Below are positions 13,142-55,645 of a stretch of 64,000 nucleotides of DNA, in pieces (the first letter of the stretch is position 1; each line of letters opens with the position of its first letter). The notes under the pieces are model-generated. The model was not told where the DNA came from. It made no database searches and saw only the letters and a list, made by a program, of their open reading frames with translations. The DNA comes from Chiloscyllium plagiosum. Lineage: Eukaryota. The translations under genes were made by a program, and so were the position numbers. The DNA is taken from the NCBI RefSeq assembly GCF_004010195.1, contig NC_057718.1, forward strand, positions 90,506,376 to 90,570,375. Direction: 5' to 3'.

Positions 13142-13362
13142 AGGAGAAAGTGAGGACTGCAGATGCTGGAGATCAGAGCTGAAAAATGTGATGCTGGAAA
13201 AGCCCAGCAGATCAGGCAGCATCCGAGGAGCGGGAGAATCGACGTTTCGGGCATAAGCCCTTCTTCAGGTTCCTGAAGAAGGGCTTATGCCCGAAACGTC
13301 GATTTTCCTTCTCCTTGGACGCTGCCTGACTGCCGCGCTTTTCCAGCAACACATTTTTCAGC
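13142..13362. mobile_element. Palindromic ORF-less PLE-derived insertion (family A)
   Basis: ~90-bp inverted arms meeting at ~13270 plus an unpaired AGGAGAAAGTGAGGACTGCAGATGCTGG extension. 21-bp duplication TTTCAGCATTATAATTAGATT at 13121-13141 and 13356-13376. Confidence 0.8.
13273..13300 (+). ncRNA. Minimal hammerhead ribozyme motif (PLE-type)
   Basis: CTGAAGA-A-GGGC-TTAT-GCCC-GAAA-CGTC: intact core, 4-bp stem II, palindromic ACGT, GUC triplet. Mirror copy on the - strand at 13241-13268. Confidence 0.7.
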
Positions 13363-15392
13363 ATTATAATTAGATTGGCAATAATATCGTGAAAAGATTC
13401 AGGGATGCCTTAATCAGAAGTTCGCAGATGCATTTTGTTGATCTGAGTTCAGGCTTTTGTTTGATCTTGCTTTCATTTTTGCCAGTAACCCCAGAAGGGG
13501 TGTGCTAAACGCCAAGCTCGAATTTGTTCCAGTTTCTGCACTACCAACAAAGAGAAAATAGAAAGTTAAGATTTCTCTTTGCAACAAACGCATCGAGCCA
13601 ATTGCACATTGTAAATGAGAGGGCACTTTAAAACAAATGTGGGATCTTAAGTCTCAGAATATCTACCATAATCTGACGATTGTAATTATCTAAATAATAT
13701 ATCTTCCAAAGAGAACATGGTGCAGTTTTCATTGCTAATGACATTTGTGTGAATATCCCATATGTTGCTAGGATATTCTGAACGGGTGGTGAATCATACG
13801 TTACCAAGGCTTGTCCAATATATTATTTGTGTGGTGAAAGTTTTGAAGCAGTCTTTAAATTATTATTGGAATTGACTTCCTATGGGACTGCGGTCAGAGA
13901 ATTACGAATGAAGTTTTCACATCAGTGGTAGTCAATCTCATTGAAATATCTCATGGTGCCTCACACAGTGAATTACTTTTTGGAAGCTCAATTACTGTTT
14001 CACAGTAGTCGACATTCTTGGCCAAGTAATGTCCCGTGGTCATACAATTGTACAGGAAGAGCAGACAGGAACTGCCCACAACTTTGGAAGTTCTAAGAAT
14101 TGCAGTGATTGTTTGTAAGCAAGTACAGCCTCGTTAGTGTTGATAATCCCTCACCTTTAAACCAGATTTTACTCAGTTAGTTTAATGCCACAAAGTGCAT
14201 TTTTATCACCAGTAGGATAGCAAGGACTCTTTGGCACATTATTGGAAAGTCTCTGCAAATGAAAGAGCCAAAAAAAAAAAGCCTTTTCTGTTCTCAAGGA
14301 TATGAGAACTGCATCACGGAGCAAGCAATTGTGTATCTCTTTAACCAAACTGGTTGAAGAATCCTTAACCCAGCAGCAGAGATCCTGAATGAGGACGTGC
14401 AAGTCAGAGCAATAAATTTAATATTCAATCATAGACTGAAAGAAAAATACCTTCGGGAAAAATATATTGGATTGTGGGAAGGGGAGCAGAAGAGAGAGAA
14501 AGAACCTTAACATGCAATCATTTTTATTGATTTGCAAACCCTTTTGAAAAACTAAAATCAAGAAAAAGAGACTCCACATTTGTTAATCTTTTTAGAACGT
14601 TATTCTTTCATGGGAACTGGATGCTGGGCCAACATTTAATGCCTGGTTGCCCTTGAGAAGTTGGTGGTGAGCTGCCTTCTTGAACTGCTATGGCCCCTGA
14701 GGGAGTGAATTCCTGGATTTTGACCCAGCGACAGCGAAGGGAACGGTGATATCTTTCCAAGTCAGGCTGGTGAGCGACTTAGAGAGGAACTTGCAGATGG
14801 TGGTGTTCCCATGTATCTGCTGCCCTTGTCCTTCTTGATGGTTGATTCTCAGTGCCAGGGAAGTTGTTTGGCTGTAATTCACACTTGCCACACTGTTTCG
14901 AAATAGAAATGCAATGAAATCTGCAAATTCAAACTTGCTCTGCTGAACTTAGTGAACTATCCATCAGGTAAACATAGTAAATTGTCCCCGTTCCATGCAT
15001 TTCAGTGATGAGTCAGTAGAATGCAATTTCTAAACAAAACAAGGCATTTCCAGCAGCCACAACACCCTGATCCCTGCAATTAACTGCAAGGGAGCATTCA
15101 CTGGGGGTTGCTGTCCTTTTGGAGGTTAATATCTTGAGCCTGACTGTTGCTGAATAAAAGACACCGTAGTGTGAAACTTTCTGTCTTACACTCATGAGGA
15201 CAATTTGCAAAAATGCCAGTGTATAACAGAACAGCATTTTTATATTGGCATGCTAGGTTGGCAAGTGGACTCTGGTAGAGGCATCATCATGGAGAATGCA
15301 CCGTTTAGATGATGACTAACAGACAACTGCCAAAGGTAGGTTGACTCTGATTGGTCAAAGCAAATAAAATGCAACACCTTCAAATGCATCTG

Positions 15393-16046
15393 TCCAGACT
15401 GGACCCTCTGGGACTCCCTTAGGAACCGCAGTGGACTGAAACTTCTGAGACCCCCTTTGCAGCCACACCGGATTGGACCTTCTAGGACTCCCTTAGGAAC
15501 CAGACTGGACTGGACCCTCTGCGACCCCTTTAGGAACCAGACTGGACTGGACCCTCTGGGACCCCCTTTAGGAACCAGATTGGACTGGACCCTCTGGGAC
15601 TCCCTTAGGAACCAGACTGGACTGGACCCTCTGGGACTCCCTTAGGAACCAGACTGGACTGGACCCTCTGGGACCCCTTTAGGAACCAGACTGTATTGGA
15701 CCCTCTGGGACCCCCTTAGGAACCAGACTGGACTGGACCCTCTGGGACCCCCTTAGGAACCAGACTGGACTGGACCCTCTGGGACCCCTTTAGGAACCAG
15801 ACTGGACTGGACCCTCTGGGACCCCTTTAGGAACCAGACTGGACTGGACCCTCTGGGACCCCTTTAGGAACCAGACTGTATTGGACCCTCTGGGACCCCC
15901 TTAGGAACCAGACTGGACTGGACCCTCTGGAACCCCCTTTAGGAACCAGACTGGACTGGACCCTCTGGGACTTCTTTAGGAACCAGACTGTATTGGACCC
16001 TCTGGGACCCCCTTTAGGAACCAGACTGGATTGGACCCTCTGGGCT
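15393..16046. repeat. ~37-bp minisatellite (~17 units)
   Basis: Unit GGAACCAGACTGGACTGGACCCTCTGGGACCCCTTTA, head-to-tail with no spacers. Confidence 0.95.
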
Positions 16047-16369: not shown

Positions 16370-16832
16370 CTGAAACAAATGCAGACCTTGCTGGCAAATC
16401 TCAGAAGGTCCATGGAGGGAAATCTAAGTTAATGTTTCGGGTCCAATGACCCTTCTTCAGTAATGGTGGTAGCTAGGTAAAGGATCATTTTTATACAGAA
16501 GGGGGAGTGGGTGGGAGGGCAGAGTAGTTGATAGGTGGAAATAGAGCCCGAAGAGAGAGAAAAACAGTTGGACAGACAAAGGAGTGGGTAAAGACCAGGC
16601 CTAGGAGAAGGACTAGCTGCTAATGGGACTTCAGTAGCTGACAATAGGTAGTGTCTGGTAGCAGCCTATGGTGGTGACAAGGCCAGGGGTGTGTGAGGGT
16701 GGGGGAAAGCATGGGGAAAGGTGCTTAAGCCCTGAAATTGTTGAACTCACTATTAGGTTCCTAAGGCTGCAGGGTTCCCAAGCAGAAAATGAAACATTGT
16801 TCTTCCGGCTTGCATTGAGCTTCGCTTGAGCA
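16370..16832 (-). mobile_element. Penelope-like 3' fragment
   Basis: Minus strand encodes a KLEEQ-like C-terminal remnant followed by a terminal repeat with a hammerhead motif. Homologous to 63400-63945. Confidence 0.6.
16431..16460 (-). ncRNA. Degenerate hammerhead motif (third PLE family)
   Basis: Minus strand CTGAAGA-A-GGGTC-ATTG-GACCC-GAAA-CATT. A related, more decayed copy is at 63847-63876 (+). Confidence 0.5.
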
Positions 16833-16838
16833 CCTTTC

Positions 16839-17682: not shown

Positions 17683-17864
17683 CTTTCTCAGTGTTCTATT
17701 ACCGCTGTCTCTCCATAGCTCTTTATGCCAAAAAGTATTGTTGAGCATGAGCGAGAAATAGGGGTGGATAAGTGGAATGAGCCAAACCCGTTTTAAGCTT
17801 GGCTTCAGTCTTTGGATTCAAAGCGGCTCGTAGGTCCTTCAAGACAAGTGCGTGCTCACCCCCT

Positions 17865-18100
17865 CAGTGCCCGAGGGCACTTAAATGCAGAAGGTCTGAG
17901 AAAAAGAACAGGAAATGACATCACCAACGCCGGAAATGGCATCACCACAGGAATTGACATCACCAACCCAAGGAAACCGAAACACGTAAATAGAAAGCGG
18001 GCCATAATGCCAGTGCTTCACCAGAGGCTCACTGATGATGTTACCTAGTACCTAGTCTGAAAACAAACCTTCCAGCTCCATGAGCAAACTTACATGCAGA
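17865..18100 (+). mobile_element. Terminal fragment of another Penelope-like family
   Basis: AAAAAGAACAGGAAATGACATCACC repeats and CACTGATGATGTTACCTAG, a hammerhead 5' half with the rest deleted. Confidence 0.45.
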
Positions 18101-20669
18101 AGGTGATATTTAGAAAAATGTTCTTTGAGAATGGATATCCTTTCAATTGAATTCTTCAATGCACATTCAGGAATACAGGAAGTGGAGTTGGCTCATAGCT
18201 GTGCCCTGGCCTTATTGAGTGACAGTGCAGGTACAATGGGCTGTACCTGTTTAATCTACTTTACAATGAGAACGTACAGCTCTTTAGCCTTGGATACTGT
18301 TGTGCACTTGCCTCACTTACAGTTACACTTCCTGTACATTCCCTTTCTTTTTGAAGCAGTCGTGCAAAGTATGTTTTTGTAAGGCTCTAGCCTGCCTGAA
18401 TGTTTGTACAAAAATAAATTTGCACCGAAACACTTTGAGACACAAACCTGGAAACAATTACTAGGATGTTATTCTGCAGCTGGTCAGTGCCTCTGTTGAT
18501 GCAGCCGGGAGAGGAATTTAATATGAACATGCTAAGCATGTGTGCTGTAACGTTAGCTCATTTTGCAAGGACGTTTGAATCCCCAACTGTGATAGCATCA
18601 TAGAATACAGTAGAAAGCGAGCAGACTAAGTGATTAGCTCTGATTGAATGCGCAGTACGGATTAAAACTGGAGCTGTGGGGAGATGTCAAAGCAAAGGGT
18701 GCAGTAACTTTTGAAAAAGGCTTAAACTTGAAAAAAGCATTTAACTATGTGTTGAATGTCAATTTGCAAATGGGTCAACTTGCTGTGCAAATGTAACAAC
18801 TTATCGACAACCAGAATATACTTTATTCAATTCTGGGAAGCAAATGGCAGTGTAATTTGAAGCATCTTAATTGTTTGGGGGTAGATGGGATGTCATTTGA
18901 GATTTAATGGTCTCTACGTAGCTACATGTAATAGTAATTTAACCACAGTTGCCTGTGGTTAGTTGGGGTTGCTGTCTATCCTACTGCTCCCCATCTACTT
19001 CTCCATTTCTCAGATGATTACTCAACTTGATAAATTGAGACCACTGTACTTGGCTGAATTATTCCCTATTTGTTTCCCAGTAAAGGGAGTTCACATGGAA
19101 TCCAGGGGGAGCTAGCCAATTGAATACAAAATTGGCCTGACAGAAGGAGACAGAAGGTGGTGGTTGAAGGTCGTTTTTTTTGGACTGGAGACCTGTGAGC
19201 AGCATTGTGCCACAGGTTTTGGTACAGGGTCCACTGTTGTTTGCATACGGTAAATGATTTGGGTGAAAATATAAAAGGCGTGGTTAGTAAGTTTGCGGAT
19301 GACACCAAAATTGGTGGTAAAGTGGACAGCGAGGAAAGTTCTCTAAGAGTACAACAGGATCATGATCAGATGGGCCAAATGGACTGAGGACTGGCAGATG
19401 CAGTTTAATTTAAATAAAAGGTGAGGTGTTGCATTTTGCTAAGGCAAACCAGGGCAAGAATTACAGCTAATGGTAGGGCCGTGGGGTATATTTTCGAACA
19501 GAGAGACCAAAGGGTTCCTTGAAAATGGTATCACAAGTAGATAGGGTGGTGAAGAAGGCATTTAGCACGTCTTCATTGGTCAGAGCATTGAGTACAGAAG
19601 TTGGAGTGTCATGTTGTGCCTGTACAGGACATCGGTGAGGCCAGTTTTGGAATACTGCATGCAGTTCTGTTTGCCCTTCTGTAGGAAGAATATTATTAAG
19701 TTGGAAATGGTGCAGAAAAGATTTACAAGGATGTTACCGGGTTTGAGTTATGAGGAGAGGCTGGATAGCCTTGGACAACCTTCCCTAGAGTGTAGGAGGT
19801 TGATGGTTGACCTTACAAAGCTTTGTAAAATCATGAGGGCATAGATCAGGAGAATAGACAAGAGGAGGGGAATTCAAAACTGGAGGGCATTGTTTTAAGG
19901 TGAGAGGGAAAAGAGTTAAAAGCGACCTGAGGAGCAACTTTTTCACCCAGAATAGAATGAACTGCCAGAGGAAGTGATAGATACAGATACAGTTACAACG
20001 TTTAAGAAATATTTGGGCAGGTACATGAATAGGAAAGTTTCGAGGGATATGGGCTAAACATGTAGTTGAAGATGCCCTCCAATGCATCTCATCCACATCC
20101 CGCACCTCCGCCCTCAAACCCCATCCCTCCAACCGTAACAAGGACAGAACCCCCTGGTGCTCCCCTTCCACCCTACCAACCTTTGCATAAACCGCATCAT
20201 CCACCAACATTTCCACCACCTCCAAACGGACCCCATCACCAGGGATATATTTCCCTCCCCACCCCTTTCCGCTTTCCGCAAAGACCGTTCCCTCCGTGAC
20301 TACCTGGTCAGGTCCACACCCTCTACAACCCACCCTCCCATCCTGGCACCTTCCCCTGCCACCGCAGGAATTGCAAAACCTGCACCCACACCTCTTCCCT
20401 CACCACCATCCAAGGCCCTAAAGGAGCCTTTCACATCCATCAAAGTTTTACCTACACATACATCATTTATTGTATCCATTGCTCCCGATGCGGTCTCCTC
20501 TACATTGGGGAGACTGGGCGCCTCCTAGCAGAGCGCTTTAGGGAACATCTCCGGGACACCCGCACCAATAAACCCCACTGCCCTGTGGCCCAAACATTTC
20601 AACTCCCCCTCCCACTCTGCTAAGGACATGCAGGTCCTGGGCCTCCTTCACCGCCGCTCCCTCACCACC

Positions 20670-20675
20670 NNNNNN
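20670..20675. other. Assembly gap (NNNNNN)
   Basis: Six N bases inside the PLE fragment. Confidence 1.
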
Positions 20676-20821
20676 TATACTCTTTTCTACCTTCCCCCAC
20701 CCTCCTCTCTGACATAACACCTTCATCCCCACCCCCATCCACCTATTGTACTCTTTACTAACTTCTCCCCAACCCCACTCCCCTCCCATTTATCTCTCCA
20801 CCCTGTAGGGTCCCTACCTTC

Positions 20822-20857
20822 AGTCCTGATGAAGGCCTTTGGCCCGAAACGTTGATT
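20822..20857 (+). ncRNA. Hammerhead motif in the terminal repeat of a PLE fragment
   Basis: AGTC-CTGATGA-A-GGCC-TTT-GGCC-C-GAAA-CGTT-GATT, directly downstream of a GIY-YIG-encoding remnant. Confidence 0.55.
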
Positions 20858-23800
20858 TTCCTACTCCTTGGATGCTGCCTGACCTACTGTGCTTTTCCAG
20901 CACCACTCTGATCTAGATACAGGCAAATGCGGTCAGTTTAGTTTGGGAAACCTGGTCAGTGCGGATGAGTTAGACCAAAGGGTGATGATGTTATGGGTAT
21001 ATCTCTTAAAGGCACACTGACGTACTGACTGTAAGATGTAAGACAACGCACTGCACTGCTATCATGTGTAATAGGAAGTGGATGCAACTAGCCAGTAAGG
21101 ACATCAATGTAAAATGCAAGCCTTATTGCACATAAAGCATGATTTGATGCCTTCAGCTTTGCCACATTGTGCAGTTCCAGTACTGAGCTTCGGAGTGTGG
21201 CTGAGGTGACACAAGCAGCAGGGGCACAGCCATAGTGTCATACAGCATGTAAACAAAACCTTCAGTGCAACTCAACTACGCTGACCAGGTCATTCTCAAA
21301 TTCAAGGGATGACATAGGGCACCACACTTATTTGTGATAACCAGGTTAGATAATCACGCCCCAACCTCAGAAGACCTTCCTCCAGTTTTTAATCTCTCAC
21401 AACATATATTCTGTGGTTACTGAGTGAAATTCCTGATTTGAACAAAATTCAAGAAAGTTCTTTTCCTTGTTGACCCCCACGCAGCAGTAAATGGGTTAAA
21501 CCTGCCCATACAAATGGGCTTTGCAGACAGGCTATTCTCTGAATCAGCTCCCAGAAATAAAAGGCTTCCACCTCATCTTTAAGATGCCGCATCATAAATG
21601 TATTTTAATTATTTCAGAACAAAATAAACTTAAACCAAAAGCAGCTATTTGCTCCAATTTCAATCAGTTAATAATGAGACATCTCCATGAATGTTTTTCT
21701 GATGGGATTAACAGACGGGCAACAGGAAAGCCACCATAGACAGTCATGACCTCTGGCTGATTGAAGGGGCACTGAAGAGGCCAGTAGTTGGTTGAGAACA
21801 GGCCCCAGAGAAAACAGGCAAGCGAATCCTGTACCTTTTCAACCCCTATCTCCCTCCGCAGTAAATATGGCAGCGATGGCCTGCCGAGGTGGGAGGTTCT
21901 GAACTAAACCACGTAAAGTTTATTGATCGCCACGAGGCAAATCAACATCTTACAAGGTGGCTGTTTGCCTAGTTTGTGAGAGATTGAAAACTGGAGGAAG
22001 GTCTTCAGAAGTTGGGGCCCAATGTTGAGGCTTAGTTCACAGAAATTTAATGAGCTGCATTTGTATAGTGCCTCAGCTCACCCTCAAATCCAAGGAATGA
22101 GTTTGGACATCACTGTCATCACTGTTTGTTTGAACCGTCTTGGCAGCCAATCTACCCACAAACCGTAAGTGAACGAATTACTATAAAACCTGCTGCTACG
22201 GTTGGTATTAGTTGTAAGGGCAATGTTGACCAGAGCACGAGCAAAACTCATACTCTTTTCCAAATTGGTGTATCACGCCTTCCTGAGAATGCACTCAGAG
22301 TCTCAGCCACGTTTCTCTTCCAAATGAGCTCCTCCTGCTATGAGTAAGTGTGAGGCTAGATCGATGTGGTCAAGGCCACAGTGAGATTAAAGCCAGAGCC
22401 ATCTCCTCAGAGTGAGGAGCTGACAGCTCAGCAAGAGCTTTGCTTTGTACCTGACTAGACTATACCTGAACTGGGAGTGTGGACATTGGGTGTCTGAGGT
22501 TGGGGGGAAAATCTTCATCACTCCCATCATTGTGAGGGACTTCAAAGACAAATAGCCATCAGTACCTAGTCTGACTGTCTCTTTCACCTACTGTCTTCCT
22601 TGTCGGTCTTTAATGACTTCCAATTGTCCCCACAGTGTTGATTCCTATATCCTCACTTTTTGTATTCCTGTGGCCTACCCTTAACTACTTGCTGCCCTCT
22701 GCCTCAGCACAAGCTCCTGTTCCTATTCAGCCCCATTTGCCCACTGCCTCAAAAGGGTAAGCCCCTCAATTTAACATGGCTGAACAAATCCTTAATAAAG
22801 GCAAATCTTTAATAGTGGAGCTAATCTCAAGCTCCACCCCCAATTACGGCAATTCTGTGAATGTAATTCTGACAACATTCCGAAAGAATTTAGAGATCTA
22901 TAAAACTTTTACACATTTGGCACATTTATCATGGCTTTTCCCATAGTGTGCAACACTCACTTTAACGTGACTAGTGTTTAGTAGCAGGGTTTAGTAATGG
23001 AGACTGATACAACAGTGCAGAACAAATGTCTTTGAGAGTGTGAGCCAAGGTATCAGGTTAGGCTAAAATGTATTTGAGAAATTTTCCCAAGGGATTACAA
23101 TCTTTGGAATATGGTGGACTAGAAATTGTGAATTCTACAAGTGGCAGGGAATGGCTTACAGTTGGATTGGTGAATAAACAGTTCCATTTGGCTAAAGGGA
23201 TAAAAGCATAAGGGGGTGAAAGTGGGAACAGGGGACTGAGTTAGATGATTATCCATGATCATATTGAATAGTGGAACAGGCTAAAAGCATCGTATGGCCT
23301 GCCCTTCCTATTTTCTATGTTTCTATGTATTATCATATATTTTAAATACCATCTATATGATATGCACATATTTGTGTGCATGTATATACAGGAAAAAGTA
23401 ATTGCCAGTCCTGATGTTGGAGTAGATATAAACCTTTTGTCCTGACCTAACAGTTAATGTTAATGTCCCCCCAAGTTAGCGGCTATAATACTGAAGACCT
23501 ACCACACTATATTTATGATCATGAATGATTTACTGGAATAAAAGTTGGGCGCTCAAACAGTGAGTAAAAGCTGGAATGAGTCACCCAATATGTTTTTATT
23601 ACAAAGAAAGAATGAGGTCTTATTTAAATATTTCACATACTCAGGCAGTTGTAAAGCCCTTCACAACCAGAGGTAAATGCTGGCTGTGAAACAGAGGCAT
23701 TTCTGTCCAGTAGGATCTTTGCTCAGCCTCCGCTTACTGTCTCCTCGGAAACGTGGCACCATCGACAATGTGATTCTCCACTCGGCTGTCGACTGGATTC

Positions 23801-24040
23801 TGTGGAAGTTAGGCTTCCACCCAGCAGGAAAGAGAAGCTGTGCTGTGCTGATCTAACAAGGTCAGACGTCACACGACACCAGGGTGGAGTCCAACGGGTT
23901 TATTTGAAATCACAAGCTTTTGGAGCGCTGCTCCTTCATGACTCCACCTGATGCAGGGGCAGGGTTAGGAAACCCACAGACAAAGAGATGACTGAATTCT
24001 TACAAGTCGTTCTTCTGGATTTGATCCCAAGGGGGAGGGA

Positions 24041-24973: not shown

Positions 24974-25160
24974 CAACTAGGCGAAAGGGAGGACTGCAAA
25001 TTCTGGAGATCAGAGTCAAGATTAGAGTGGTGCTGGAAAAACACAGCTAATGCCTGAAATGTCAATTGAAGGGCTAATGCCTGAAATGTCAATTCTCCTG
25101 CTCCTCGGATGCTGCCTGACCTGCTGTGCTTTTCCAGGACCACTCTAATCTTGAGTCTGA
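24974..25160. mobile_element. Rearranged palindromic PLE-derived insertion (family A-like)
   Basis: CAACTAGGCGAAAGGGAGGACTGCAAATTCTGG extension, inverted TCAAGATTAGAGTGGTGCTGGAAAA arms, internal 22-bp direct duplication, near-TSD ATC(C/T)AAATCA. Confidence 0.6.
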
Positions 25161-25699: not shown

Positions 25700-27570
25700 T
25701 CATGGGCTAGGGACAGGAGGTGTTGATGAGCTCCTTTCTTGAACACTGCAGTTCCTGGGTGGGGTACTTTTAGTAGACGGTTCTAAGATTTTGCCTCAGT
25801 GACACTGAAGGAACAGCAAGATAGTTCCGAGTCAGGAGAGTGTATGACTTGGAGGGGAGCTTGCAAATGGTGATGATCCCACTTATCGGCTGCCCTTACC
25901 CTTCTGGGTTGCAAAGGTCACGGGTTTAGAAGGTGCTGTTGGAGGACCTTAGCTGGACTACTGCAGTGCATTGTGTAGATACAACACACTGCTGTCACTG
26001 AGAGTCAGAGTCGAGAGTGCGTTGCTGGAAAGGCACAGCAGGTCAGGAAGCATCCAAGGAGCAGGAGAATCTACGTTTCGGGCATAAGCCCTTCAAGCAT
26101 AAGCCCTTACGATGAGAGGAAGGTCATTGGTGAAGCAGCTGAAGGTAGTTGGGCCTAGAACACTACCCTGAGGGACCAGGGTTGCTTTGGTGCAGTGGCA
26201 GTGCCCCTACGTTGAGTCAGGAGGCCTGGGTTTGAGTTTCACCTGTTTCAATGATGTGTAATAACACTCTTTGAACAGGTTGATTTGACAATATGTAGCT
26301 GAGGTATTCCTGAGATAATTGACCTTCAACAACCACCGCCATCTTCCTTTCTGCCAGGTGTGGCCGTACCCAATTTTTGTATTGAATCCAATTTTTCTCG
26401 AGCTTGATGGTACATTTGACGAATCGTTGACTTGATGCCAAGGGCAATCACCTTCACTTGTCCACTTCAGTCCACCACATCCTTTCTAGTTTGGTTCAAG
26501 GCTAGAATGAGGTCAAGAACCGAATGATCCTGGCAGAACCCAACTGGGCATCACTGAGCAAGTTCTTACTGAGCAAATGTTCCTTGATAGCACTGTTGAT
26601 GACACCTTCCATCACTTTACTGATGATCAAGAGTAGAGGCAGTGATTGCTGGATTGGATTTGTCATTTTGTTTTGTGTAAAGGGCAATTTTCCACATTGT
26701 TGGGTAGATGACAGTGTTGTAACTGTACTGGAACAGCTTGGCCAGGGGACTGGTTACATTCTGTCTTCAATCTGATTGCTGGAATAATATCAGGCCCATA
26801 GCCTTCACTGGATCCAGTGCCTTCAGCCATTTCCTGATATCATGTGGAGTGAATTGTTTGAGGACTGGCATTTCTGATGCGAGGAACCTCAGAATTGGCT
26901 AAAATGGATTTTCCTTTCCACAGTTCCAGCTGATGCTTGTAAGTGCTTCATCGTTGCCTTTGGCATTGATTGTGCTGGCACTACCCATCATTGAGGGTGC
27001 GGATATTAACAGAGCTGCCTCCTCCAATTTAGTTGCGTAATTGTCCACTGCCACTCATGACCGGATGTAACAGGACTGCAGAGCTTAGATCTGATTTACT
27101 GGTTGAAGAGTCACTCAGACCAGTTTAGTTCATGCTGTATGTAGTGCAGTTTTGTAGCTTCACCAGGTTGACATCTCTATTTTAAGCACGCCTGGTGCTG
27201 TTCCTGGTGAAATAACTCCGCAAAGGCTGGTATTCTGTCACCAAGTTACCCTTTATTTACATGTGCACATGACCCAGTTAGCTCAGAGTCAGTTGCAAGA
27301 GAGAGCAGCACCTCCGACTTGCCTGTTTATGTCTGTCAGCCAAGGCTCCCTGGTTGGACCAGGTTAACAGCCGCAATCAGAGAACTCACACTCTGAGAGA
27401 TTCATCGGGCTGACCTCGTTCCAATCACTGCATTTGGCATGTCCTCCAGCATTCTTCATTGACCCCTTGGCTTGATAGTAATGGTAGATTCAGGGAAACA
27501 TTGGTCCACACAGTTACAGTTTGTGGTTGAGTACAATGTTGCTTCTGCTGCTACTGATATCCTACAGTGC
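25700..27570 (-). mobile_element. Decayed CR1/L2-clade LINE (second family) with nested inserts
   Basis: IISKVMEGVINSAIKEHLLSKNLLSDAQ (N-terminal RT region). The same 3' end recurs at ~2045-2250, 3745-4335, 14600-14845, 44480-45470 and 60530-60700. Confidence 0.65.
27208..27432. mobile_element. Short solo-LTR-like insertion (~225 bp)
   Basis: TG...CA termini, interrupts LINE sequence, degenerate flanking duplication CCTGG/TTTGG. Confidence 0.45.
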
Positions 27571-27739: not shown

Positions 27740-28565
27740 GTTGGTAGCCCCCTAACCCTCTGAGCCAGAGATTGTGGCTTTTGGAACCTCATTCTGAAGA
27801 CCTGAACACATCATTCAGGCTGATCTCCCAGTGCAGTAATGAGGGAGTGCCTCAGGGTCAGTACTGAGGGAGTGCTGCACTGTCAGAGGGTCAGTACTGA
27901 GGGAGTGCTGCACTATTAGAGGGTCAGTACTGAGGGAGTGCTGCACTGTCTGAGGGTCAGTACTGAGGGAGTGCTGCACTGTTGGAGGGTCAGTACTAGG
28001 GAGTGCCGCACTGTCGGAGGGTCAGTGCTGAGGGAGTGCCGCACTGTCGGATGGTCAGTACTGAGGGAGTGCTGCACTGTTGGAGGGTCAGTACTAGGGA
28101 GTGCCGCACTGTCGGAGGGTCAGTGCTGAGGGAGTGCCGCACTGTCGGATGGTCAGTACTGAGGGAGTGCTGCACTGTTGGAGGGTCAGTACCGAGGGAG
28201 TGCTGCACTGTCGGAGGGTCAGTACTGAGGGAAGTACTGAGGCAGTGCCGCACTGTCGGAGGGTCAGTACTGAGGGAGTGCCGCACTGTTGGAGGGGCAG
28301 TCATTTGTCTGAGATCTTAGAGTAAGGCAATTCGATTTGGAAAATGCAATACCATTTAGCACAGGGTTGCCTCCTCTGTGTCCCAGGCAACAATTATCCC
28401 TTAACTGATGTCCAACGAGCCGGTCATTATTACATTGCATTTAGTGGGAGCTTGCTGTGCCCAAATGTGCTGCTGCATTTCTTTCATTACAAAAGTGACA
28501 TGCATTAGCTGCAAAGTGCTTTCAGGTTCCCTGGATAATGAAGGACAGAGTGCAAATCAATGCTT
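27740..28565 (+). mobile_element. Deu-domain SINE (SacSINE1-like) with an internal minisatellite expansion
   Basis: CAGTGCAGTA(C)TGAGGGAGTGCTGCACTGTC core and downstream GTGGGAGCTTGCTGTGC body. Unexpanded reverse remnants occur at ~39170-39380 and 40945-41030. Confidence 0.55.
27839..28296. repeat. 33-bp minisatellite (~14 units)
   Basis: Unit GGGTCAGTACTGAGGGAGTGCTGCACTGTCGGA, with a 98-bp higher-order repeat (28003 vs 28101). Confidence 0.95.
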
Positions 28566-29152: not shown

Positions 29153-29327
29153 CCTAGTTGCTGTTGAACTGAATGGCTTGCCAGGCCACTTGTACCTGAA
29201 GTTCCAGGTAAGGACAGCAGATTTCCTTTTCTGAACCAGTTGGGTTTTGCCAATCAACTGTATATTGGATTTATTGTTAAAAATCACACAACACCAGGTT
29301 ATAGTCCAACAGGTTTAATTGGAAGCA

Positions 29328-29362
29328 CACTAGCTTTCGGAGCGACGCTCCTTCATCAGGTG
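29328..29362 (-). ncRNA. Minimal hammerhead ribozyme motif (second PLE family)
   Basis: Minus strand reads CAC-CTGATGA-A-GGAGC-GTC-GCTCC-GAA-AGCT-A-GTG: stem I CAC/GTG, 5-bp stem II, palindromic AGCT, UA at the cleavage site. Confidence 0.7.
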
Positions 29363-30796
29363 GTAGTGAGTTTAAAATGCAGTTGTCATGGTGGGATTTG
29401 AACCTGTGTAATTCAGAGTGTTAGCCTGGACCTCTGAATTACTAATACAGTGGCTTTACCATTATGCCATGTTTATGGTGTAGCTGACAAGCACAGTACT
29501 GGATTCTACCCAACTGCAACATGTCACATTTATTTGCGGCACACATTGCAACTATCAGCTGAATTCTTGGTGCAGGTAGAAAGGAGGGATGCTTCTTTAT
29601 AATGTGGCTCAGAAATTGGCTGACTGCAGGTTTTCAGGGGTTCCAGCTAGTTCCAGTTCCTAGTGAAGGGCTTATGCCTGAAACATTTACTCTCCTGCTT
29701 GTCAGATGCTGCCTGACCTGCTGTGCTTTTCCAGCGCCACACTTTATTGGGATGGTGAACATCCCAAGGCGTCAATGCCATTGTCCCTACATCTGCAATC
29801 GAACGGGATTTGGTCAAACACAGGCAGGAATTGGGAAAACAAGTCAAGTCTAGTGGACAATCCTGCGGGTGTCAAAAGAACTGAGATTGTGTTTATGACC
29901 AGGGAGTGCTAAAATGGATGCAGTTTGATTTTGGTACAAAGTACAACATAATGGTTAGAAAAGGAGACCTACTCCAAACATGTTTTTGACTGGGAATTTA
30001 TCACTAATGCCAGCCCTTGTGGTGGATTGGTGATCGTTAAGTGTAACAGAATACTGAAATAGTTTGATGGATAAATCCAAAAGGTTACTTTGTTGAAAAC
30101 AGTGCAGTGCTGTGGTCACCTTAAATAGTGAGAAGAACGAAGAAGGGTGTTAGACAATTGATTGCCACCCTTACCGAGACTGGCTTTGGGTATGCGAGAT
30201 TTATTAAGTGAATTTAAATTCAATTCAAATCCCAGCTGTCCAATGGGGTATGAACCTGACTGAAGCTTGGAGCAAAACATCATGAAGGAGATTCCAAGTG
30301 ATTGATGACTAGATGCCTTTTTGACCCCTGCTGAATTTGCAGTATTCGTGAAGAAATATGGTTTCAGGATCTGAGCTAAGCAGAAACCGGGGCATGAATT
30401 CACGTTAGAGCTTTATTTCTGGCCAAACACATATCAACTCATAAAAGATAAGTCTTGGCCTGATGTTTGGAGACACAGTGGAGCAAGGAAATGAACCTCT
30501 GAATAGGGCCAAGGGTGGAAATAGCTCTGAAAACATTCAACATTGAGAAACTGTTAGTATTTGTGGGAAAGCCCAAGACTAGTGCCCATTAGTGTGACAA
30601 CGTTTCGACTAAGACGTTTAGGAGGATGCTTTCTAACTTCGACTGCTTGGAATGTAGTATTCGCTGTCCTGAGAAGTGGGTGAGCTGAGGGGGATAAATG
30701 CGAGGTGAGGCAGTTAAACCTGAGAGGATATCTTAACATGTGGAGCGTGAACATGAACCTAATGGTGTCACACAGCATAGACCTGTTGGGCTGAAT

Positions 30797-31033
30797 CAAC
30801 TAGGAGAAAGTGAGGACTGCAGATGCTGGAGAATAGAGCTGAAAAATGTGTTGCTGGAAAAGCGCAGCAGGTCAGGCAGCGTCCAAGGAGCAGGAGAATT
30901 GACGTTTCAGGCATAAGCCCTTCTTCAGGAATGACATTCCTGAAGAAGGGCTTATGCCCGAAACGTCGATTCTCCTGCTCCTTGGATGTTGCCTGACCTG
31001 CTGCGCTTTTCCAGCAACACATTTTTCAGCTCT
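30797..31033. mobile_element. Palindromic ORF-less PLE-derived insertion (family A)
   Basis: ~100-bp inverted arms centred on GGAATG-A-CATTCC (30935). TSD CTGTTGGGCTGAAT at 30783-30796 and 31032-31045. Confidence 0.8.
30940..30967 (+). ncRNA. Minimal hammerhead ribozyme motif (PLE-type)
   Basis: CTGAAGA-A-GGGC-TTAT-GCCC-GAAA-CGTC preceded by ATTC and followed by GATT. Mirror copy with one substitution on the - strand at 30901-30928. Confidence 0.7.
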
Positions 31034-31146: not shown

Positions 31147-32207
31147 CATTCTAATGTCTGTAAGGAATCCAGCGAGTGGAATTTGCCTCCTTTCTTCCAG
31201 TCTTTTGCATTTTTTCTGTAAAATACCAAGCAAGTGTTGAGCAGTCTATTGCCCGACCTCTTTGACAGACATGTGAGAAACTGCACTTAATTTGACTAAA
31301 GTCTTGATGTAATTTTTCAGAAATCGGGCATTTATTTTTGTTTTCCATTTTAACCCACTGACTTTGCTATTCCCAGGGTATTTCGTGGTGAGTTATGCTT
31401 CAGAGGTGGATGACAAGAGGATAGGCCGAAGACTGATGGAACACGATGATGGCAATGCCACAAATGCCAAGACAACTTCGCACCAGTATAAGAACTGCAC
31501 TGAGCCTGGTAAGAGAAGCAGTATCTCACCGGGTTCCTGAGACAGTCTCACAATGTTACGCAGTCATATGTTGTCTTTGTACAGGAGTGAGACATTGCTT
31601 GTAACGTATTCTTGTTCTAAAAATACTCTTGGGTAACGGGCTGACCCAATTAGAAACCTGGCAGTGGTTGAGAGAGAGAGAAAATGGAAATTCTGAGGTG
31701 TTATAGAGCACTCAGTAATGCTGGCTACAGCGTACCATTGATAGAGATGGAGTGGTTTGCCCGCATTATTTAACTGGGGAAGGTAAATGGGAGAAGCAAA
31801 TACTTTTCTTTTTTAAAAAGAAAACTGTACGTAGGTGATTCTGAGAGACTATCTACAACCGATCACATTGCTGTACGTACTGCAGAAGATATTCCGTTTT
31901 ACTTTAAAGGGGGTGGTGTGGTCATTTGGTGTACAGAACCCACTATAAAATGTGCCTGTGCTTGATCACTGCTTAAGTCACCTTTGTTGTTGTACAGGGA
32001 AATGTTTTGTTGGGATAAACTGAAAGCACAAACTTGCACTGCAGCCGATATAATGTAGACTTGCCATTGTAACAATAATCTGCTCCAGCACAGCATAAGT
32101 GGTGCCCAAAGCTGAAGGGCCCCATTCTAATGTCTGTAAGGAATCCAGCGAGTGGAATTTGCCTCATTTCTTCCAGTCCTTTGCACTTTTTTCTGTAAAA
32201 TACCAAG
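31147..32207 (+). repeat. ~85-bp dispersed direct repeat flanking the exon (31147-31230 and 32123-32207)
   Basis: CATTCTAATGTCTGTAAGGAATCCAGCGAGTGGAATTTGCCTC...AAAATACCAAG, differing by 2 substitutions and 1 indel. Confidence 0.95.
31377..31508 (+). CDS. SLC24A3/SLC24A4: Internal coding exon (exon 2-like) of a K+-dependent Na+/Ca2+ exchanger, NCKX3/NCKX4 family
   Basis: Acceptor ...actttgctattcccAG at 31375-31376 and donor GTAAGA at 31509. 132 bp, phase 1-1, open frame (x)GG TAT TTC... = GYFVVSYASEVDDKRIGRRLMEHDDGNATNAKTTSHQYKNCTEP. The R(R/K)LM...KNCT(E/D)P motif directly before a phase-1 intron matches exon 2 of SLC24A3 (RKLM...KNCTEP|ALHEFP) and SLC24A4 (RKLM...KNCTDP|AIHEFP), recalled from memory. 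Paralogue unresolved: length favours A3, junction Gly favours A4. Confidence 0.85.
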
Positions 32208-37351: not shown

Positions 37352-37617
37352 AAACAAAACCACACAACACCAGATTATAGTCCAACATGTTTATTTGAAA
37401 GTTGGTGCTTCCAAATCCCTGATGAAGAGCTTATGCTCGAAACGTCGACTCTCCTGCTCCCTGGATGCTGCCTGACCAGCTGTGCTTTTCCAGCACGACA
37501 CTCTTCAACGATCCCTGGTGTTGAGTGAGCACGACACTCTTCAACGGTAACCTGGTGTTGTGTGATTTTTCTTTACTTAGTCCACACCAGTCCAACACCG
37601 GCTGCTCCACATCATGG
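37352..37617. mobile_element. Chimeric/nested PLE terminal repeats (family A inside family B)
   Basis: Family-B arms at 37352-37415 and 37548-37617 enclose a family-A segment with an intact hammerhead. AGCACGACACTCTTCAACG occurs twice. Confidence 0.65.
37419..37446 (+). ncRNA. Minimal hammerhead ribozyme motif (PLE-type)
   Basis: CTGATGA-A-GAGC-TTAT-GCTC-GAAA-CGTC. Stem II carries a compensatory change relative to the GGGC/GCCC copies. Confidence 0.7.
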
Positions 37618-47968: not shown

Positions 47969-48175
47969 TGATTTGGAGATGCCGGTGTTGGACTGGGGTG
48001 TACAAAGTTAAAAATCACACAACACCAGGTTATAGTCCAACAGGTTTAATTGGAAGCACACTAGCTTTCGGAGTGACGCTCCTTCAATCACCTGATGAAG
48101 GAGCGTTGCTCCGAAAGCCAGTGTGCTTCCAATTAAACCTGTTGGACTATGACCTGGTGTTGTGTGATTTTTAAC
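47969..48175. mobile_element. Palindromic ORF-less PLE-derived insertion (family B)
   Basis: Inverted arms GTTAAAAATCACACAACACCAGGTTATAGTCCAACAGG.../...CCTGTTGGACTATGACCTGGTGTTGTGTGATTTTTAAC with central damaged hammerhead cores. TSD TAAATGAAACA at 47958-47968 and 48176-48186. Confidence 0.8.
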
Positions 48176-48375
48176 TAAATGAAACACAGCAGCTTGACAT
48201 TTTTGAGTCCTGAAAGGGTTTTGGAACTTGAATGATCTTTGCCATATTTCTGCTGCCAACAGTGCCCCTTTCCCAGTGGTGAGGATGTTAAACTGCACCC
48301 TGCAATGCCACTGTATCTTATCTTCTGCAATGGCACTCTCTCTGATTCCGGTAAGTGCTATAATACTGTGCAGGT

Positions 48376-51140: not shown

Positions 51141-51255
51141 AGTCACCATTGTTGAGACCAACTTACAATTCCAGATTTTGTTAATCACTGGTCTGGTGGA
51201 ATTCAAGCTCATGTCCCAGTATCTGGATCTCTGGATTACTCAAATAAGCATGGAA

Positions 51256-51974: not shown

Positions 51975-52533
51975 CCAACCTAGTTTGCTGTATCTAGTAT
52001 TCCCGATGTGGTCTTCACGACATCGGGAAGACCAAACGTAAACTTAGGGAATGGTTTGTCGAGCATATCAACCGGGCCTGCAGGTGCCAACCGGACCTCC
52101 CAGTCACCCCCCATTTTAATTCCCCCTCCCATTCCCTTTCTGACATGAGCATCTTCGGCCTCCTCCATTGCCACAATGAACCATACCGCAAATTGGAGGA
52201 ACAACACCTCTTCTTCCGCCTGGGCAGCCTATAGCCTGGAGGACTCAAAATTGAGTTCTCCAATTTCAAATAACCTCCCTTCCCTGACCCTGACTCCCTT
52301 CTCTGCCCCTCCCTCTCCTTTCCACTCCTCCCAGCCACCCACCGGATTCATTCCTTCCATTGACTAACCCTTTGCCTGTCTTCACCTATCCCCACTTCAC
52401 CACCCTGCCCCCACCAGCCCCTTTATCTGCAGCTCCCCTTATGCCCACCCCCAGTCCTGAAGGAGGGTCGCACCCGAAACATTGACTTCTCCACCTCCTG
52501 GCTTGCTGTGTTCTTCCAGCCTCCTGCTTGTCC
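51975..52533 (+). mobile_element. Decayed Penelope-like fragment nested in CR1
   Basis: GIY-YIG-like remnant (...RCGLHDIGKTKRKLRE...; KLEEQHLFFRLGSL) and a terminal repeat with a degenerate hammerhead at 52453-52487. Confidence 0.7.
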
Positions 52534-53336
52534 ACCACTCCCTCTGGCAGTTCATTTCATACACGCACCACCCCTGCATGAAAACGTTGCCCCATAGGTC
52601 CCTTTTATACCTTTCCCCTCTCCCCTAAACCTATGCTGTCTCGTTTTGGACTTCCCCACCCTAGGGAAAAGACCTTATCTATTTGCCCTATCCATGCCCC
52701 TCATGATGTTATAAAGTAAGAAATTATAGACTCAGTGACATGAGCTACAAACTTCCAATAGGATTCACTAAAGTTCATCTGAGTGATGTAGAACAGACAA
52801 ATTTTTTCCACACTGATACCATATTTTCTTAATTTAATGTATTCTACAACTTAGTCTATTCCTTGTCTTTTAAAGTTGCTTAATTCGAATTCGAATTATT
52901 GAATATTTCAGTCTTTGGGCATTAAATTCCTTGAGTATTGTTTAGTTTACAGTTTTAATATTTTTGTTTAAATTATCTACAGTACAACACAGGATGCTAA
53001 GTGGGGTGAGCATCGGGGTAGGAAAAAACTAGGTAAAAACAATGACTGCAGATGCAGGAAACCAGAGTTTAGATTAGAGTGGTGCTGGAAAAGCACAGCA
53101 GTTCAGGCAGCATCTGAGGAGCAGGGAAATCAACATTATCAGGGTAGGAAACCATATCCTACATTAGGTACATAAATTTAGCAATGTTCATGTTTTCTGC
53201 CAAATTGCATAATGAAGATATGTTTAAATAAAAGTTTACTTTGAACAAGTACAATTTATCATATACACAATGTGAAAATATTGAAGTGAAATGAGGTTGA
53301 TGCGATACAAGAAAACATTAATATCATTCATTTTCA

Positions 53337-53900
53337 AATCATAGAATCCTACAGTGTGGAAGCAAGCCACTTAGCCCACACCGGCCCTCTGATGAGCAAC
53401 CCACCCAGACCCCACTCCCTACCCTATTCCTGCTATTCCTATGGGCTGCACATTCCTGGACACATCTCAAAGATCCACCCCACCCTACAACCTCTACCAT
53501 CGGGGAGAAGGTACAGAAGCTTGAACACACACACCAGCCGGTTTCATAACAGTTTCTACCCTACTGTTGTTAGAATACTGAATGGACTCACAAACTCTTA
53601 GCATGCGCCTGTACCTGTGTTTTTGTTTTTGCCGCTGTTTACCTATTATTTCCTTATCTATGCTACTTAACTCTGTGATCTGCCTGTACTGCTCGCAAGA
53701 CGAAGCTTTTCACTGTGCCTCGGTACATGTGACAATAAATTCAGTTCAATTCTATGGGCAATTTAGCCTGACCAATTCACCTAACCTGCCTGTTTTTGGA
53801 CTGGGAGAGAACGTGCAAACTCCAAACAGACAGTCGCCCAAGGCTGGAATGGAACCCAGGTCCCTGGTGCTGTGAGGTAGCAGTGCTAACCACTGTGTTG
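53337..53900 (-). mobile_element. HE1-type SINE split by a Rex1/Babar 3' fragment
   Basis: SINE tail at 53337-53460 and head at 53752-53900 flank the insert. Confidence 0.7.
53461..53751 (+). mobile_element. Rex1/Babar-clade LINE 3' end
   Basis: LQPLPSGRRYRSLNTHTSRFHNSFYPTVVRILN, then a 3' UTR ending GACAATAAATTCAGTTCAATT. Highly similar to the reverse complement of 56586-56870. Confidence 0.75.
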
Positions 53901-54475
53901 CCTGTACTGTGCAAGCACAAAGCAGCATTGAAAACTCCTCCAAACCTCTCTTTTACAACAAATGTGAAGGTGATCAAGGGTGTCTTGTATATGTTGCAGA
54001 TGAGGGAAAATGGAGATGCTCTGACAGGTTCACAGCAAAAGTGACCACTGCATTCATTTGTCCCATTGCAGCTAATAGATAGTAACTGAGGTGATTGTGA
54101 CGGTTCGTGGCTTGTGAAGAGATTTGTGATTGTCTCAGTGAAATGAAAACACATCGCTCTGGTTGCTGTTGAAGGAAGTGAGGGAGTTCGATGCAGGCAC
54201 CGAGAGGGTGTCACCTCCAGAGGTGATACTCAAGGTCATCCGATCCAAAGTTTACAGTGACTGGCAAACGACCCAGTGGAGACACGAGGGAACAAAGTGA
54301 AAAAAAAACATGCTCAGCAAGTTGTGGTGATCTAGAGCGTGCTGCCTGGGAAGCTGGTGAAAACACACCTAGTACTAACTGTCAAAAGGGAACTGAATTC
54401 ATGTTTAGAGACGGAGAATTGCAGGGTCACAGGCAAAAAAAAAACACAAGGGGGCGAGATAATTAGATAGCCCTT

Positions 54476-55645
54476 TAGATCATAAGACATAGGAGCAGAA
54501 ATTAGGCCATTCAGCCCATCGAGTCTGCTCCGCCATTCTGTCATGGCTGATGGGTTTTTCAACCCCATTTTCCCGCTTTCTCCCTGTAACCTTTGATCCC
54601 CTTGGCAGTCAAGAACTTATCAATCTCTGTTTTAAATCTACTCAATGATCTGGCCTCCACAGCCTTCTGTGGTAATGAATTGCACAGATTCACCACTCTC
54701 TCTGGATAAAGACATTCCTCCTCATCTCCATTCTTCCCTTCCCTCGAAGGCTGGGCCTCCAGGTCCCCGTCTCTCCTGCCAATGGAAACAACTTCCCAGT
54801 GTCCATTCTGTCCAGGAGAAAGTGAGGACTGCAGATGCTGGAGTACCAGAGTTCAAATTCACCTGCACCTCCACACACATCATTTACTGCATCCGCTGTA
54901 CCCGATGTGGCCTCCTCTACATTAGGGAGACAGGCCGCCTACTTGCGGAACGTTTCAGAGAACACCTCTGGGACACCCACACCAACCAACCCAACCGCAC
55001 CGTGGCTGAACACTTTAACTCCCCTTCCCACTCCGCCAATGACATGCAGGTCCTTGGCCTCCTCCATCGCCAGACCCTGGTCACACGATGCCTCTGAAAC
55101 TGTGGATTCTAAAATCAGTTTTAAGGCTGACACAGAACAGGAATCCCTGATTCCTGAAGAAGGGCTTATGCCCGAAATGTCGATTCTCCTGCTCCTCGGA
55201 TGCTGCCTGGCCTGCTGTGTTTTTCCAGCACCACATTTTTCAACTCCACTCAGTCCAGGCCATTCAGTAATTCTGTAAGTTTCAATTAGATCCCCTCACC
55301 CTTCTAAACTCCATTGAGTATAATCCCAGAGTCCTCAAATGTTCCTCATATGTGAAGCCTTTCATTCTCGCGAACCTCCTTTGGACCCACTCCAGGGCCA
55401 GTACATCTTTCCTGAGGTGTGAGGCCCAAAATTACTCATAATACTCTAAATGAGGTCTGACCTTTAAAGCCTCAGAAGTATATCCCTGCTTTTATATTCT
55501 AGTTCTCTCGAGATGAATGACAACATTGTACTTGCATTCCTAACTACCAACTCAACCTGCAAGTTTACCTGAAGAGAAACCTGGACTCGGACTCCCAAGT
55601 CCCTTTGCACCTCAGATTTCTGAATTTTCTCCACATTTAGAAATG
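54476..55645 (-). mobile_element. CR1 LINE fragment hosting a PLE insertion
   Basis: VQRDLGVRV...LEYKSRDILLRL remnant, with the CR1 3' UTR at 54476-54560. Confidence 0.7.
54814..55244 (+). mobile_element. Penelope-like fragment with GIY-YIG remnant, nested in CR1
   Basis: FTCTSTHIIYCIRCTRCGLLYIRETGRLLAERFREHL...VAEHFNSPSHS between a short inverted terminal piece and a hammerhead-bearing repeat (55154-55181). Near-TSD TCCA(T/C)TC(T/A)GTCCAGG at 54802-54816 and 55245-55259. Confidence 0.85.

What the first reader, a model, noticed from the sequence alone, without database searches (positions are those of the whole stretch)
13241..55181. A dispersed set of minimal hammerhead-ribozyme motifs with covarying stem II across several repeat families
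Seen: at least 10 loci carry CTGANGA-A-[stem II]-GAAA followed by a short palindrome and a UH site. Intact cores are at 13273, 30940 and 37419 (+) and 13241 and 29328 (-). Variant or decayed copies are at 16431, 20826, 30901, 48092, 52457, 55154 and 63847. Stem II differs in sequence but stays paired: GGGC/GCCC, GAGC/GCTC, GGAGC/GCTCC, GGGT/ACCC, GGGTC/GACCC. Stem I is seen as AGTC/GACT and CAC/GTG. Helix III is replaced by self-complementary ACGT or AGCT. Established: Penelope-like elements carry minimal type-I hammerheads lacking helix III that are proposed to cleave as dimers. Inference: at least three shark PLE families each keep their own ribozyme variant, and the + strand copies are transcribed within the NCKX pre-mRNA.
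Basis: partly seen in the sequence, partly recalled or inferred. Interest (0 to 1): 0.75.

Follow-up and report, generated by a model that had tools for sequence, protein, structure and literature searches.

The report
Penelope retrotransposon stubs with minimal hammerheads
These are short leftover ends of Penelope-like jumping genes that carry an already described tiny hammerhead-ribozyme motif; most copies here are broken or predicted to fold away and so likely do not cut host RNA, and the sharp way the copies start suggests the element's RNA likely begins at the ribozyme's first base and was copied while still capped and uncut.

Summary
The motifs are real: 9 exact cores with a paired stem II against 0.08 in shuffles, and stems I and II covary across five families. 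They are the minimal type-I hammerheads already described in pseudo-LTRs of Penelope-like elements (PLEs). Families A and B follow a reverse transcriptase, Neptune linker and GIY-YIG frame, C and E follow GIY-YIG pieces, and D is not yet tied to a frame. The genome holds roughly 240,000 such cores. 'Intact' was overstated. Of eight + strand cores only 30940 matches its family throughout, and it and 13273 lie in long inverted repeats predicted to bury them, so cutting of the NCKX-like pre-mRNA is unlikely. The fresh point is where family A copies start: at the first base of stem I, about 31 nt after a TATA-like box, with an extra G (3,444 G against about 1,440 A genome-wide). They rarely start at the cut site. 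This fits run-off cDNAs of a capped, uncut RNA that begins with the ribozyme. The scan has noted this family and this clue before on other DNA (287 findings in at least 27 genomes); I did not find the clue in print.

The parts
13141..13362 (.). Family A head-to-head pair, one insertion: left arm (-) with core 13245-13268 and the 3' tail, right arm (+) with core 13273-13296 and no tail; flanked by a 19-letter direct repeat (13121 and 13356)
   Evidence: hairpin -162 kcal/mol
16376..16501 (-). Family D stub; core 16435-16460, palindrome and stem I decayed; TATAAAA box starts 35 nt before C3
17909..18090 (+).
   Evidence: intact relatives
20066..20911 (+). 5'-truncated, frameshifted Neptune fragment: CxxxxCxxC linker, GIY-YIG piece, 3' UTR, then core 20826-20849 (stem II broken, stem I 4 pairs)
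29269..29368 (-). Family B stub, complete motif (core 29335-29359, GGAGC/GCTCC, AGCT, CUA, stem I CAC/GTG); starts 9 nt before C3; antisense to the host gene
30801..31031 (.). Family A head-to-head pair: left arm (-) core 30905-30928 decayed, with tail; right arm (+) core 30940-30963 matching the family, predicted cut 30967/30968; 14-letter direct repeat at 30783 and 31032
   Evidence: hairpin -203 kcal/mol
31378..31509 (+). Probable host exon (AG/GT ends, open frame), likely an early exon of an NCKX (SLC24A3/4-like) gene; the name is recalled, not tested by homology
   Evidence: covered by one contig with 192 other letters before it; PF01699 exons on + 206-297 kb further on
37356..37507 (+). 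Family B scraps joined to a family A stub with core 37419-37442 (GAGC/GCTC variant); stem I reduced to 1 pair by the junction
48006..48176 (.). Family B head-to-head pair; + core 48092-48116 has U16.1 changed to C; the - arm starts inside the core
52000..52540 (+). Family C fragment: GIY-YIG C-terminal piece, 3' UTR with TTTATCT box, core 52457-52479 (A9 to G, stem I AGTC/GACT)
54813..55246 (+). Inverted tail, GIY-YIG piece (54849-55094), then a family A stub starting G-ATTC with core 55154-55177 (palindrome decayed)
63806..63942 (+). Family D stub; core from 63847 has G8 and A9 changed; ATAAAA box about 34 nt before C3
1795..1897 (.). Family B palindrome without the core; similar stubs lacking a complete core at 12100-12180, 23856-23960, 25067-25154, 26014-26095, 29657-29745 and 53027-53143

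Best explanation
The motifs are minimal type-I hammerhead cores in the pseudo-LTRs of several Penelope-like retrotransposon families, left here as short, mostly broken insertions that likely do not cut the host RNA, and the short family A copies are likely DNA copies of the capped, uncut front end of the element's RNA. Shown: core and covarying stems; place behind RT/GIY-YIG coding pieces (A, B, C, E) and 162 nt before the likely start codon (A); two 3' ends about 35 nt apart; head-to-head pairs; target duplications; a 5' junction peak at the first base of stem I with an extra G. Inferred: a TATA/Initiator promoter starts the RNA at that base; reverse transcription starts inside the RNA about 95 or 130 nt downstream and runs off the capped end, giving 100-135 bp stubs; stubs are joined by microhomology or to a second, inverted cDNA. 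By analogy with other PLE hammerheads, the ribozyme would cut only as a dimer through the ACGU or AGCU palindrome, or with the element's protein, and would trim about 32 capped nucleotides or end a monomer. The copied RNAs had mostly not been cut.
For: 9 exact cores vs 0.08; 40 in 600 kb of stretches taken at round coordinates vs 0-2 in 10 shuffles. In 32 hand-picked copies, stem I pair 2 holds in 32 of 32 with three pair types and pair 1 in 30 of 32; the true family pairing is reached by 1 of 120 permutations for stem I and 2 of 120 for stem II. One frame with RT, CxxxxCxxC and GIY-YIG is followed by the motif (L122; RVT_1 passes its cut-off in L128 and L110, GIY-YIG in L024). B has the same order in L288. 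The motif lies 115-118 nt before the ORF-start piece in 14 of 30 loci. 5' ends: 54 of 114 unselected A copies start at -8..+6, mode -4; 6 of 114 at the cut site +27..+29. Of 21,111 exact 30-mers, the base before is non-native in 5,724: G 3,444, A or T 2,280 (63 A and 37 T in the first 100, by eye); one base further up A and G are equal, 19 and 19 of the first 100. None of 30 G-start loci has native upstream sequence, and in 8 of 8 with a target duplication the G lies in it (two of the 8 are one duplicated site). Boxes sit at fixed distance: TTTATCT-type at -31 in 44 of 57 A copies, TATAAA in B, D and E. Untemplated G is attributed to cap copying in L1/SVA (PMC3287187, passages).
Against: No cleavage or RNA 5' end was measured. 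20 of 30 G-start loci have an inverted partner that can itself supply the G. In my local sample the G excess alone was not significant (10 of 32, p = 0.18). The 5' peak has a broad shoulder to +6. The family A box TTTATCT is not a canonical TATA box. A small bump at the cut site may exist (25 of 100 late-starting copies by eye, of which 14 have another explanation). No complete gap-free element was recovered, and family D is not tied to a coding frame. For B the 5' ends are spread over -13..0.
Confidence: 0.8

Rival explanations
1. Same PLE hammerheads, but the 5' junction peak comes from DNA-level processing, not from the RNA start: the GIY-YIG endonuclease cuts its own pLTR at ATT, or repair favours that spot.
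For: The anole Poseidon protein prefers 5'-ATT-3' in its own pLTR (PMC11167929, parts 1-2), and family A has ATT at -4..-2. Many junctions show microhomology.
Against: It does not predict the G excess confined to -5, nor boxes about 31 nt upstream in several families. Families C and D have AGT, not ATT, at that place, though their 5' ends were not mapped.
Confidence: 0.12
2. The -4 boundary is a 3' splice site or the start of a separate non-autonomous short element that amplifies on its own.
For: In Drosophila Penelope the intron ends at the 5' end of helix I (PMC4209133). Families C and D and the 20826 copy have a pyrimidine tract and CAG there.
Against: The main A subfamilies have no AG at that place. 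The 30 G-start loci share no upstream exon or leader. Stubs carry several subfamily variants and both 3' ends.
Confidence: 0.05
3. Some + strand copies act as ribozymes in the NCKX-like pre-mRNA and affect its processing.
For: The copies lie in probable introns of a + strand gene. 30940 matches its family throughout, and family RNA is present in both orientations.
Against: 7 of 8 + cores are defective in core, palindrome, UH or stem I. 30940 and 13273 are predicted inside hairpins of -203 and -162 kcal/mol. The dimer helix is worth only -3.1 to -4.5 kcal/mol, and partners are kilobases away. Family-wide read depth is flat (531-557) across the cut site with no pile-up of ends in one run, though that library type keeps such ends poorly.
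Confidence: 0.03

Closest known systems
Minimal hammerheads (min-HHR) in pLTRs of metazoan Penelope-like elements (Cervera and De la Pena 2014, PMC4209133; parts 1-2 of 4 read, supplements not read)
   Same: Type I core without helix III, extra base between 9 and 10.1, G10.1-C11.1, palindromic 15.2-16.2, several consensus families per genome, mostly single motifs from truncated PLEs, opposite-strand pairs; reported there for Neptune, Poseidon and Xena of fishes.
   Different: No cartilaginous fish in the text I read; they counted about 4,000 (coelacanth) and 9,000 (Xenopus) against my estimate of about 240,000 cores with a looser descriptor; they do not relate the motif to the transcript start.
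PAc, Poseidon element of Anolis (Frangieh et al. 2024, PMC11167929; parts 1-2 of 4 read)
   Same: Hammerhead at the pLTR-ORF junction, reverse transcription starting at two internal sites that define the tail, uncut RNA as the main template, no RNA-seq ends at the cut site, protein-assisted cleavage.
   Different: There the ORF starts at stem II and the cut lies 26 nt inside it; in family A the likely start codon is 162 nt after C3. The paper does not describe run-off stubs or a cap-derived G in the parts read.
PLE insertion architecture (Craig et al. 2021, PMC8557442; Arkhipova et al. 2013, PMC3846280; passages of both)
   Same: 5' truncation, partial tandems, inverted 5'-truncated copy, 30-40 bp tail on one end, target duplications, CX2-5CxxC linker of Neptune; TATA and Inr-like motifs noted in a rotifer pLTR.
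   Different: Here most insertions are only 100-230 bp and share a sharp start at the ribozyme's first base.
Non-LTR retrozymes (Li, Clavereau and Pollet, bioRxiv 10.64898/2026.07.22.740005; part 1 of 5 and passages read, supplements closed)
   Same: Type I hammerheads derived from PLE pLTRs; found in the one chondrichthyan sampled.
   Different: Defined as tandem repeats with at least two complete motifs; the window copies are solo or inverted, and the short tandems elsewhere have a different unit length at each locus.

Membership tests
Minimal type-I hammerhead (min-HHR) | Core CUGANGA, one extra base, GAAA, UH site | tested here: met
   Family majorities of A, B, E and most D rows; many single copies have decayed
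Minimal type-I hammerhead (min-HHR) | G10.1-C11.1 and a covarying stem II | tested here: met
   G-C in 25 and G-U in 6 of 32; pairs 2-4 change on both sides between families; stem II was partly selected by my patterns
Minimal type-I hammerhead (min-HHR) | Short stem I with compensatory changes | tested here: met
   Pairs 1-3 hold in 30, 32 and 25 of 32; 1 of 120 family permutations reaches the observed pairing
Minimal type-I hammerhead (min-HHR) | Palindromic 15.2-16.2 in place of helix III | tested here: met
   CG in A and E, GC in B; 24 of 32 are CG or GC, the other 8 are CA or TG as expected from CpG decay, and they dominate the few C and D rows
Minimal type-I hammerhead (min-HHR) | Self-cleavage as dimer or with protein | not testable with these tools
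   Needs bench work; RNA reads show no end pile-up
Endonuclease-bearing Penelope-like element | One ORF with RT and C-terminal GIY-YIG | tested here: met
   L122 one frame (both Pfam hits there are below cut-off, cut-offs passed in L128, L110, L024); B in L288 with frameshifts; not shown for D
Endonuclease-bearing Penelope-like element | Hammerhead-bearing pLTR on both sides of the ORF | tested here: inconclusive
   Seen after the ORF end and before the ORF start in separate copies; no complete gap-free element recovered
Endonuclease-bearing Penelope-like element | Optional 30-40 bp tail, inverted 5'-truncated copy, target duplication | tested here: met
   3' ends cluster near +90..97 and +124..133; 94 distinct tail ends, shared continuation only into the ORF; duplications
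Neptune clade | CX2-5CxxC linker between RT and endonuclease | tested here: met
   Families A and B; no tree was built
Penelope/Poseidon clade (family E) | GIY-YIG without Neptune linker, placement in an RT tree | tested here: inconclusive
   Endonuclease pieces upstream of E copies; clade name rests on recalled motifs, no tree
Non-LTR retrozyme | Tandem repeat with two or more consecutive complete motifs | tested here: not met
   No such array in the window; two-unit partial tandems exist elsewhere
Domesticated intronic hammerheads (human RECK type) | Canonical helix III and single conserved locus | tested here: not met
   No helix III, no Rfam match, very high copy number; cross-species conservation of the sites not tested

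The most novel reading that the evidence does not exclude
In these PLEs the transcript starts exactly at the hammerhead. The reverse transcriptase, priming inside the 5' pseudo-LTR, runs off the capped end and integrates a strong-stop-like cDNA, which explains tens of thousands of 100-135 bp stubs and their head-to-head pairs. The ribozyme is then a 5'-terminal switch that removes a 32-nt capped piece and so takes an RNA out of translation and integration, or primes it for circularisation, rather than a tool for releasing the template.
Probability: 0.55. Interest if true: 0.55.

Novelty: new member of a known kind. Interest (0 to 1): 0.33.

Why it matters
The motif and its link to PLEs are in print, so the catch itself is ordinary. 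Two points add something. First, scale: about 240,000 exact cores, perhaps 130,000 with all core features, far above published vertebrate counts, though with a looser descriptor. Second, the role of PLE hammerheads is an open question, and the insertions record the ends of the RNAs that were copied. If the RNA starts at the ribozyme's first base and integrated templates were capped and uncut, the ribozyme does not make the template's 5' end. That is directly testable by CAGE and by in vitro priming assays.

Tried and rejected
Rfam scan: no hammerhead family; only chance microRNA-type hits on hairpins. Monomer folding energy: no signal; cofolding did not return the hammerhead dimer for any of 5 copies. 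MAFFT put family B one column out of register and shifted stem II in a second run, so no covariance model was built and pairs were counted on anchored rows instead. Search for a complete element: long 'open frames' were assembly gaps or 5'-truncated copies. Sequencing-run search: no RNA holder listed; run X22 laid no reads; a second lay meant to look for RNA 5' ends gave no result, so the transcript start is untested on RNA. Cut-site footprint: inconclusive (6 of 114 at +27..+29; 25 of 100 at +28 by eye among late-starting copies, of which 8 are explained by an inverted partner and 6 by internal deletions). An ATG in loop II was rejected as the start codon because subfamilies change it and the frame closes in A1. 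Early motif searches for the NCKX exon failed before one search found it. Lunse et al. 2017 is not held; I know it only through a review (PMC6765202, passages). Paper searches that found nothing on the 5'-end clue: 0 papers; 1 unrelated; 0 papers; one search found no paper on shark PLE hammerheads among 4 listed. Supplements of PMC4209133 and of the preprint were not seen and may list shark families.
Full report
Observation. An exact CTGANGA-N-stem-GAAA scan with at least four stem II pairs finds 9 in the window against 0.08 on average in 25 dinucleotide shuffles. Self-BLAST groups them into a large family A, a family B and smaller families C and D; a remnant of a fifth family E lies at 18032. 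Rfam has no match for these minimal forms, and monomer folding energies are ordinary (8 of 8).

Covariation. I sampled 60 stretches of 10 kb at round coordinates on large contigs of the 3.56-Gb genome. They hold 40 exact cores against 0-2 in 10 shuffles, which scales to about 240,000 (bootstrap 160,000-330,000; small contigs not sampled). In 70 such stretches, 26 of 85 family-assigned motifs have exact core, G10.1-C11.1, paired stem II, palindrome and UH, and 8 of these have three or more contiguous stem I pairs. On 32 hand-picked copies anchored at the core, stem I pairs 1-3 hold in 30, 32 and 25 rows with three or four pair types each, and stem II pairs 2-4 change on both sides between families. 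The true pairing of family majorities is reached by 1 of 120 permutations for stem I, whose 5' strand my patterns did not select, and by 2 of 120 for stem II. The palindrome is ACGU in A and E and AGCU in B. This is good evidence of selection on the fold in the active parent elements, not in the single copies.

What carries the motif. Three window copies (20826, 52457, 55154) follow GIY-YIG pieces. The endonuclease piece has 101,289 first-look candidates in the genome. Locus L122 has one frame with RT motifs, a CxxxxCxxC linker and GIY-YIG, followed by the motif and an inverted copy. Family B shows the same order in L288; C and E follow endonuclease pieces; D was not linked. A natural short tandem led to the 5' end of family A: the motif lies 115-118 nt before the ORF-start piece in 14 of 30 loci, and the likely start codon is 162 nt after C3 (read by eye). 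Copies end at two main places about 35 nt apart, the tail ends sharply in 94 distinct flanks, and the window's palindromes are single insertions with a tail on one arm and flanking direct repeats. These are the hallmarks described for PLEs (PMC8557442 and PMC3846280, passages). No complete gap-free element was found in this gapped assembly.

State of the window copies. Of eight + strand cores, seven fail in core, palindrome, UH or stem I. The exception, 30940, and the near-exception, 13273, pair with their own inverted copy in predicted hairpins of -203 and -162 kcal/mol. The one complete B copy (29335-29359) is on the - strand. A probable host exon lies at 31378-31509, Na/Ca-exchanger exons lie on the + strand 206-297 kb further on, and one contig of a run guessed to be RNA covers the exon with other sequence before it. 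The window is therefore probably intronic to an NCKX-like gene; the exon's name is recalled. In one single-cell poly(A) run (about 2% read), family-wide reads cover both orientations, depth is flat across the cut site (531-557) and no place shows piled ends; a second run laid nothing. This library type is a weak test.

Where the copies start. Among 114 family A copies from stretches not chosen for the repeat, 54 start between -8 and +6 relative to C3, with the mode at -4, the first base of stem I; 6 start at +27..+29, the cut site; 17 run on past -40 (one search gives the same picture). Whole-genome exact counts for a 30-mer beginning at -4 total 21,111. The base before it is native C in 15,387, G in 3,444 and A or T in 2,280. 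By eye the first 100 of the last group are 63 A and 37 T, so G is about 2.4 times A. One base further up, A and G are equal (19 and 19 of the first 100). None of 30 G-start loci carries native upstream sequence. Eight have a target duplication of 7 or more letters, and in all eight the G lies at its end, overlapping the element start by 1-4 letters; twenty have an inverted partner, which can supply the G; two are unclear. In my smaller local sample the G excess was not significant (10 of 32, p = 0.18). Upstream, a TTTATCT-type box starts 31 nt before this base in 44 of 57 long A copies, TATAAA boxes sit 35, 40 and about 47 nt before C3 in D, B and E, and the start itself reads TCATTC, TCAGTC or TCAGTT, the Initiator consensus as I recall it.

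Mechanism. The simplest reading is that a promoter in the pLTR starts the RNA at the ribozyme's first base. Reverse transcription starts internally at one of two sites that define the tail, as shown in vitro for the anole element (PMC11167929). When this happens in the 5' pLTR it runs off the capped end after 100-135 nt, adds a C opposite the cap, and is joined through that C to a G in the target or in a second cDNA. Extra G's are read this way for L1 and SVA (PMC3287187, passages). Templates were mostly uncut, in line with the anole result. The ribozyme would act only as a dimer or with protein (PMC4209133; PMC6765202); cutting would remove about 32 capped nucleotides or end a monomer. Promoter, cap and cleavage are inferred, not shown. 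Rivals are an endonuclease hot spot at ATT, a splice site, or a separate short element; each explains less. A minor class of copies starting at the cut site is possible but unresolved.

Comparison and novelty. The motif meets every testable feature of the min-HHR of PLEs, and families A and B meet the Neptune linker test. This is a new member of a known kind; a chondrichthyan with PLE-derived hammerheads is already in a preprint. TATA and Inr motifs were noted in a rotifer pLTR, and Drosophila Penelope has a TATA-less internal promoter (PMC2377424, passages). I did not find the coincidence of RNA start and ribozyme, or a cap-derived G in PLE stubs, in print, but one key paper and all supplements were unseen. 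I reached this reading before consulting the scan's notes (notebook); the notes then showed 287 findings on this motif in at least 27 genomes, several with the same clue. They are not independent support.

Verdict. Observation confirmed, interpretation right on identity and overstated on intactness and host relevance. Interest 0.33; the 5'-end clue is the part worth testing.

Noticed in passing
window 17909-18200: Remnant of a fifth hammerhead family (E) with a 6-7 bp stem II; intact relatives show stem I changes on both sides within the family (CTCA/TGAG, TCCA/TGGA, GCA/TGC).
   Followed up: partly
L063:2136-2665 (-) and L181, L183, L184, L191, L193, L200, L205: Short same-strand tandems with two complete family A motifs 331-466 nt apart (8 distinct loci of 28); better candidates for dimer cleavage than anything in the window.
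   Followed up: partly
window 30801-31031, 13141-13362, 48006-48176, 1795-1897: Near-perfect intronic hairpins of 100-230 nt; would be double-stranded RNA substrates for A-to-I editing or small RNA production. Differences in reads could not be told from paralogue variation.
   Followed up: no
window 31378-31509: Probable NCKX-type exon; the 1 kb just before the window is an assembly gap that may hold the first exon.
   Followed up: partly
window 15397-16044, 27854-28301, 28732-29152: Tandem arrays of 37, 33 and 211 bp units.
   Followed up: no
window 56779-57488 (-): Broken LINE reverse transcriptase C-terminal pieces; Pfam PF09004 passes its cut-off.
   Followed up: no
L032:3260, L140:4307, L146:1220: Further stem II variants (AGGT/ACCT, GGGC/GTCT with other loops), suggesting more subfamilies than the five described.
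   Followed up: no
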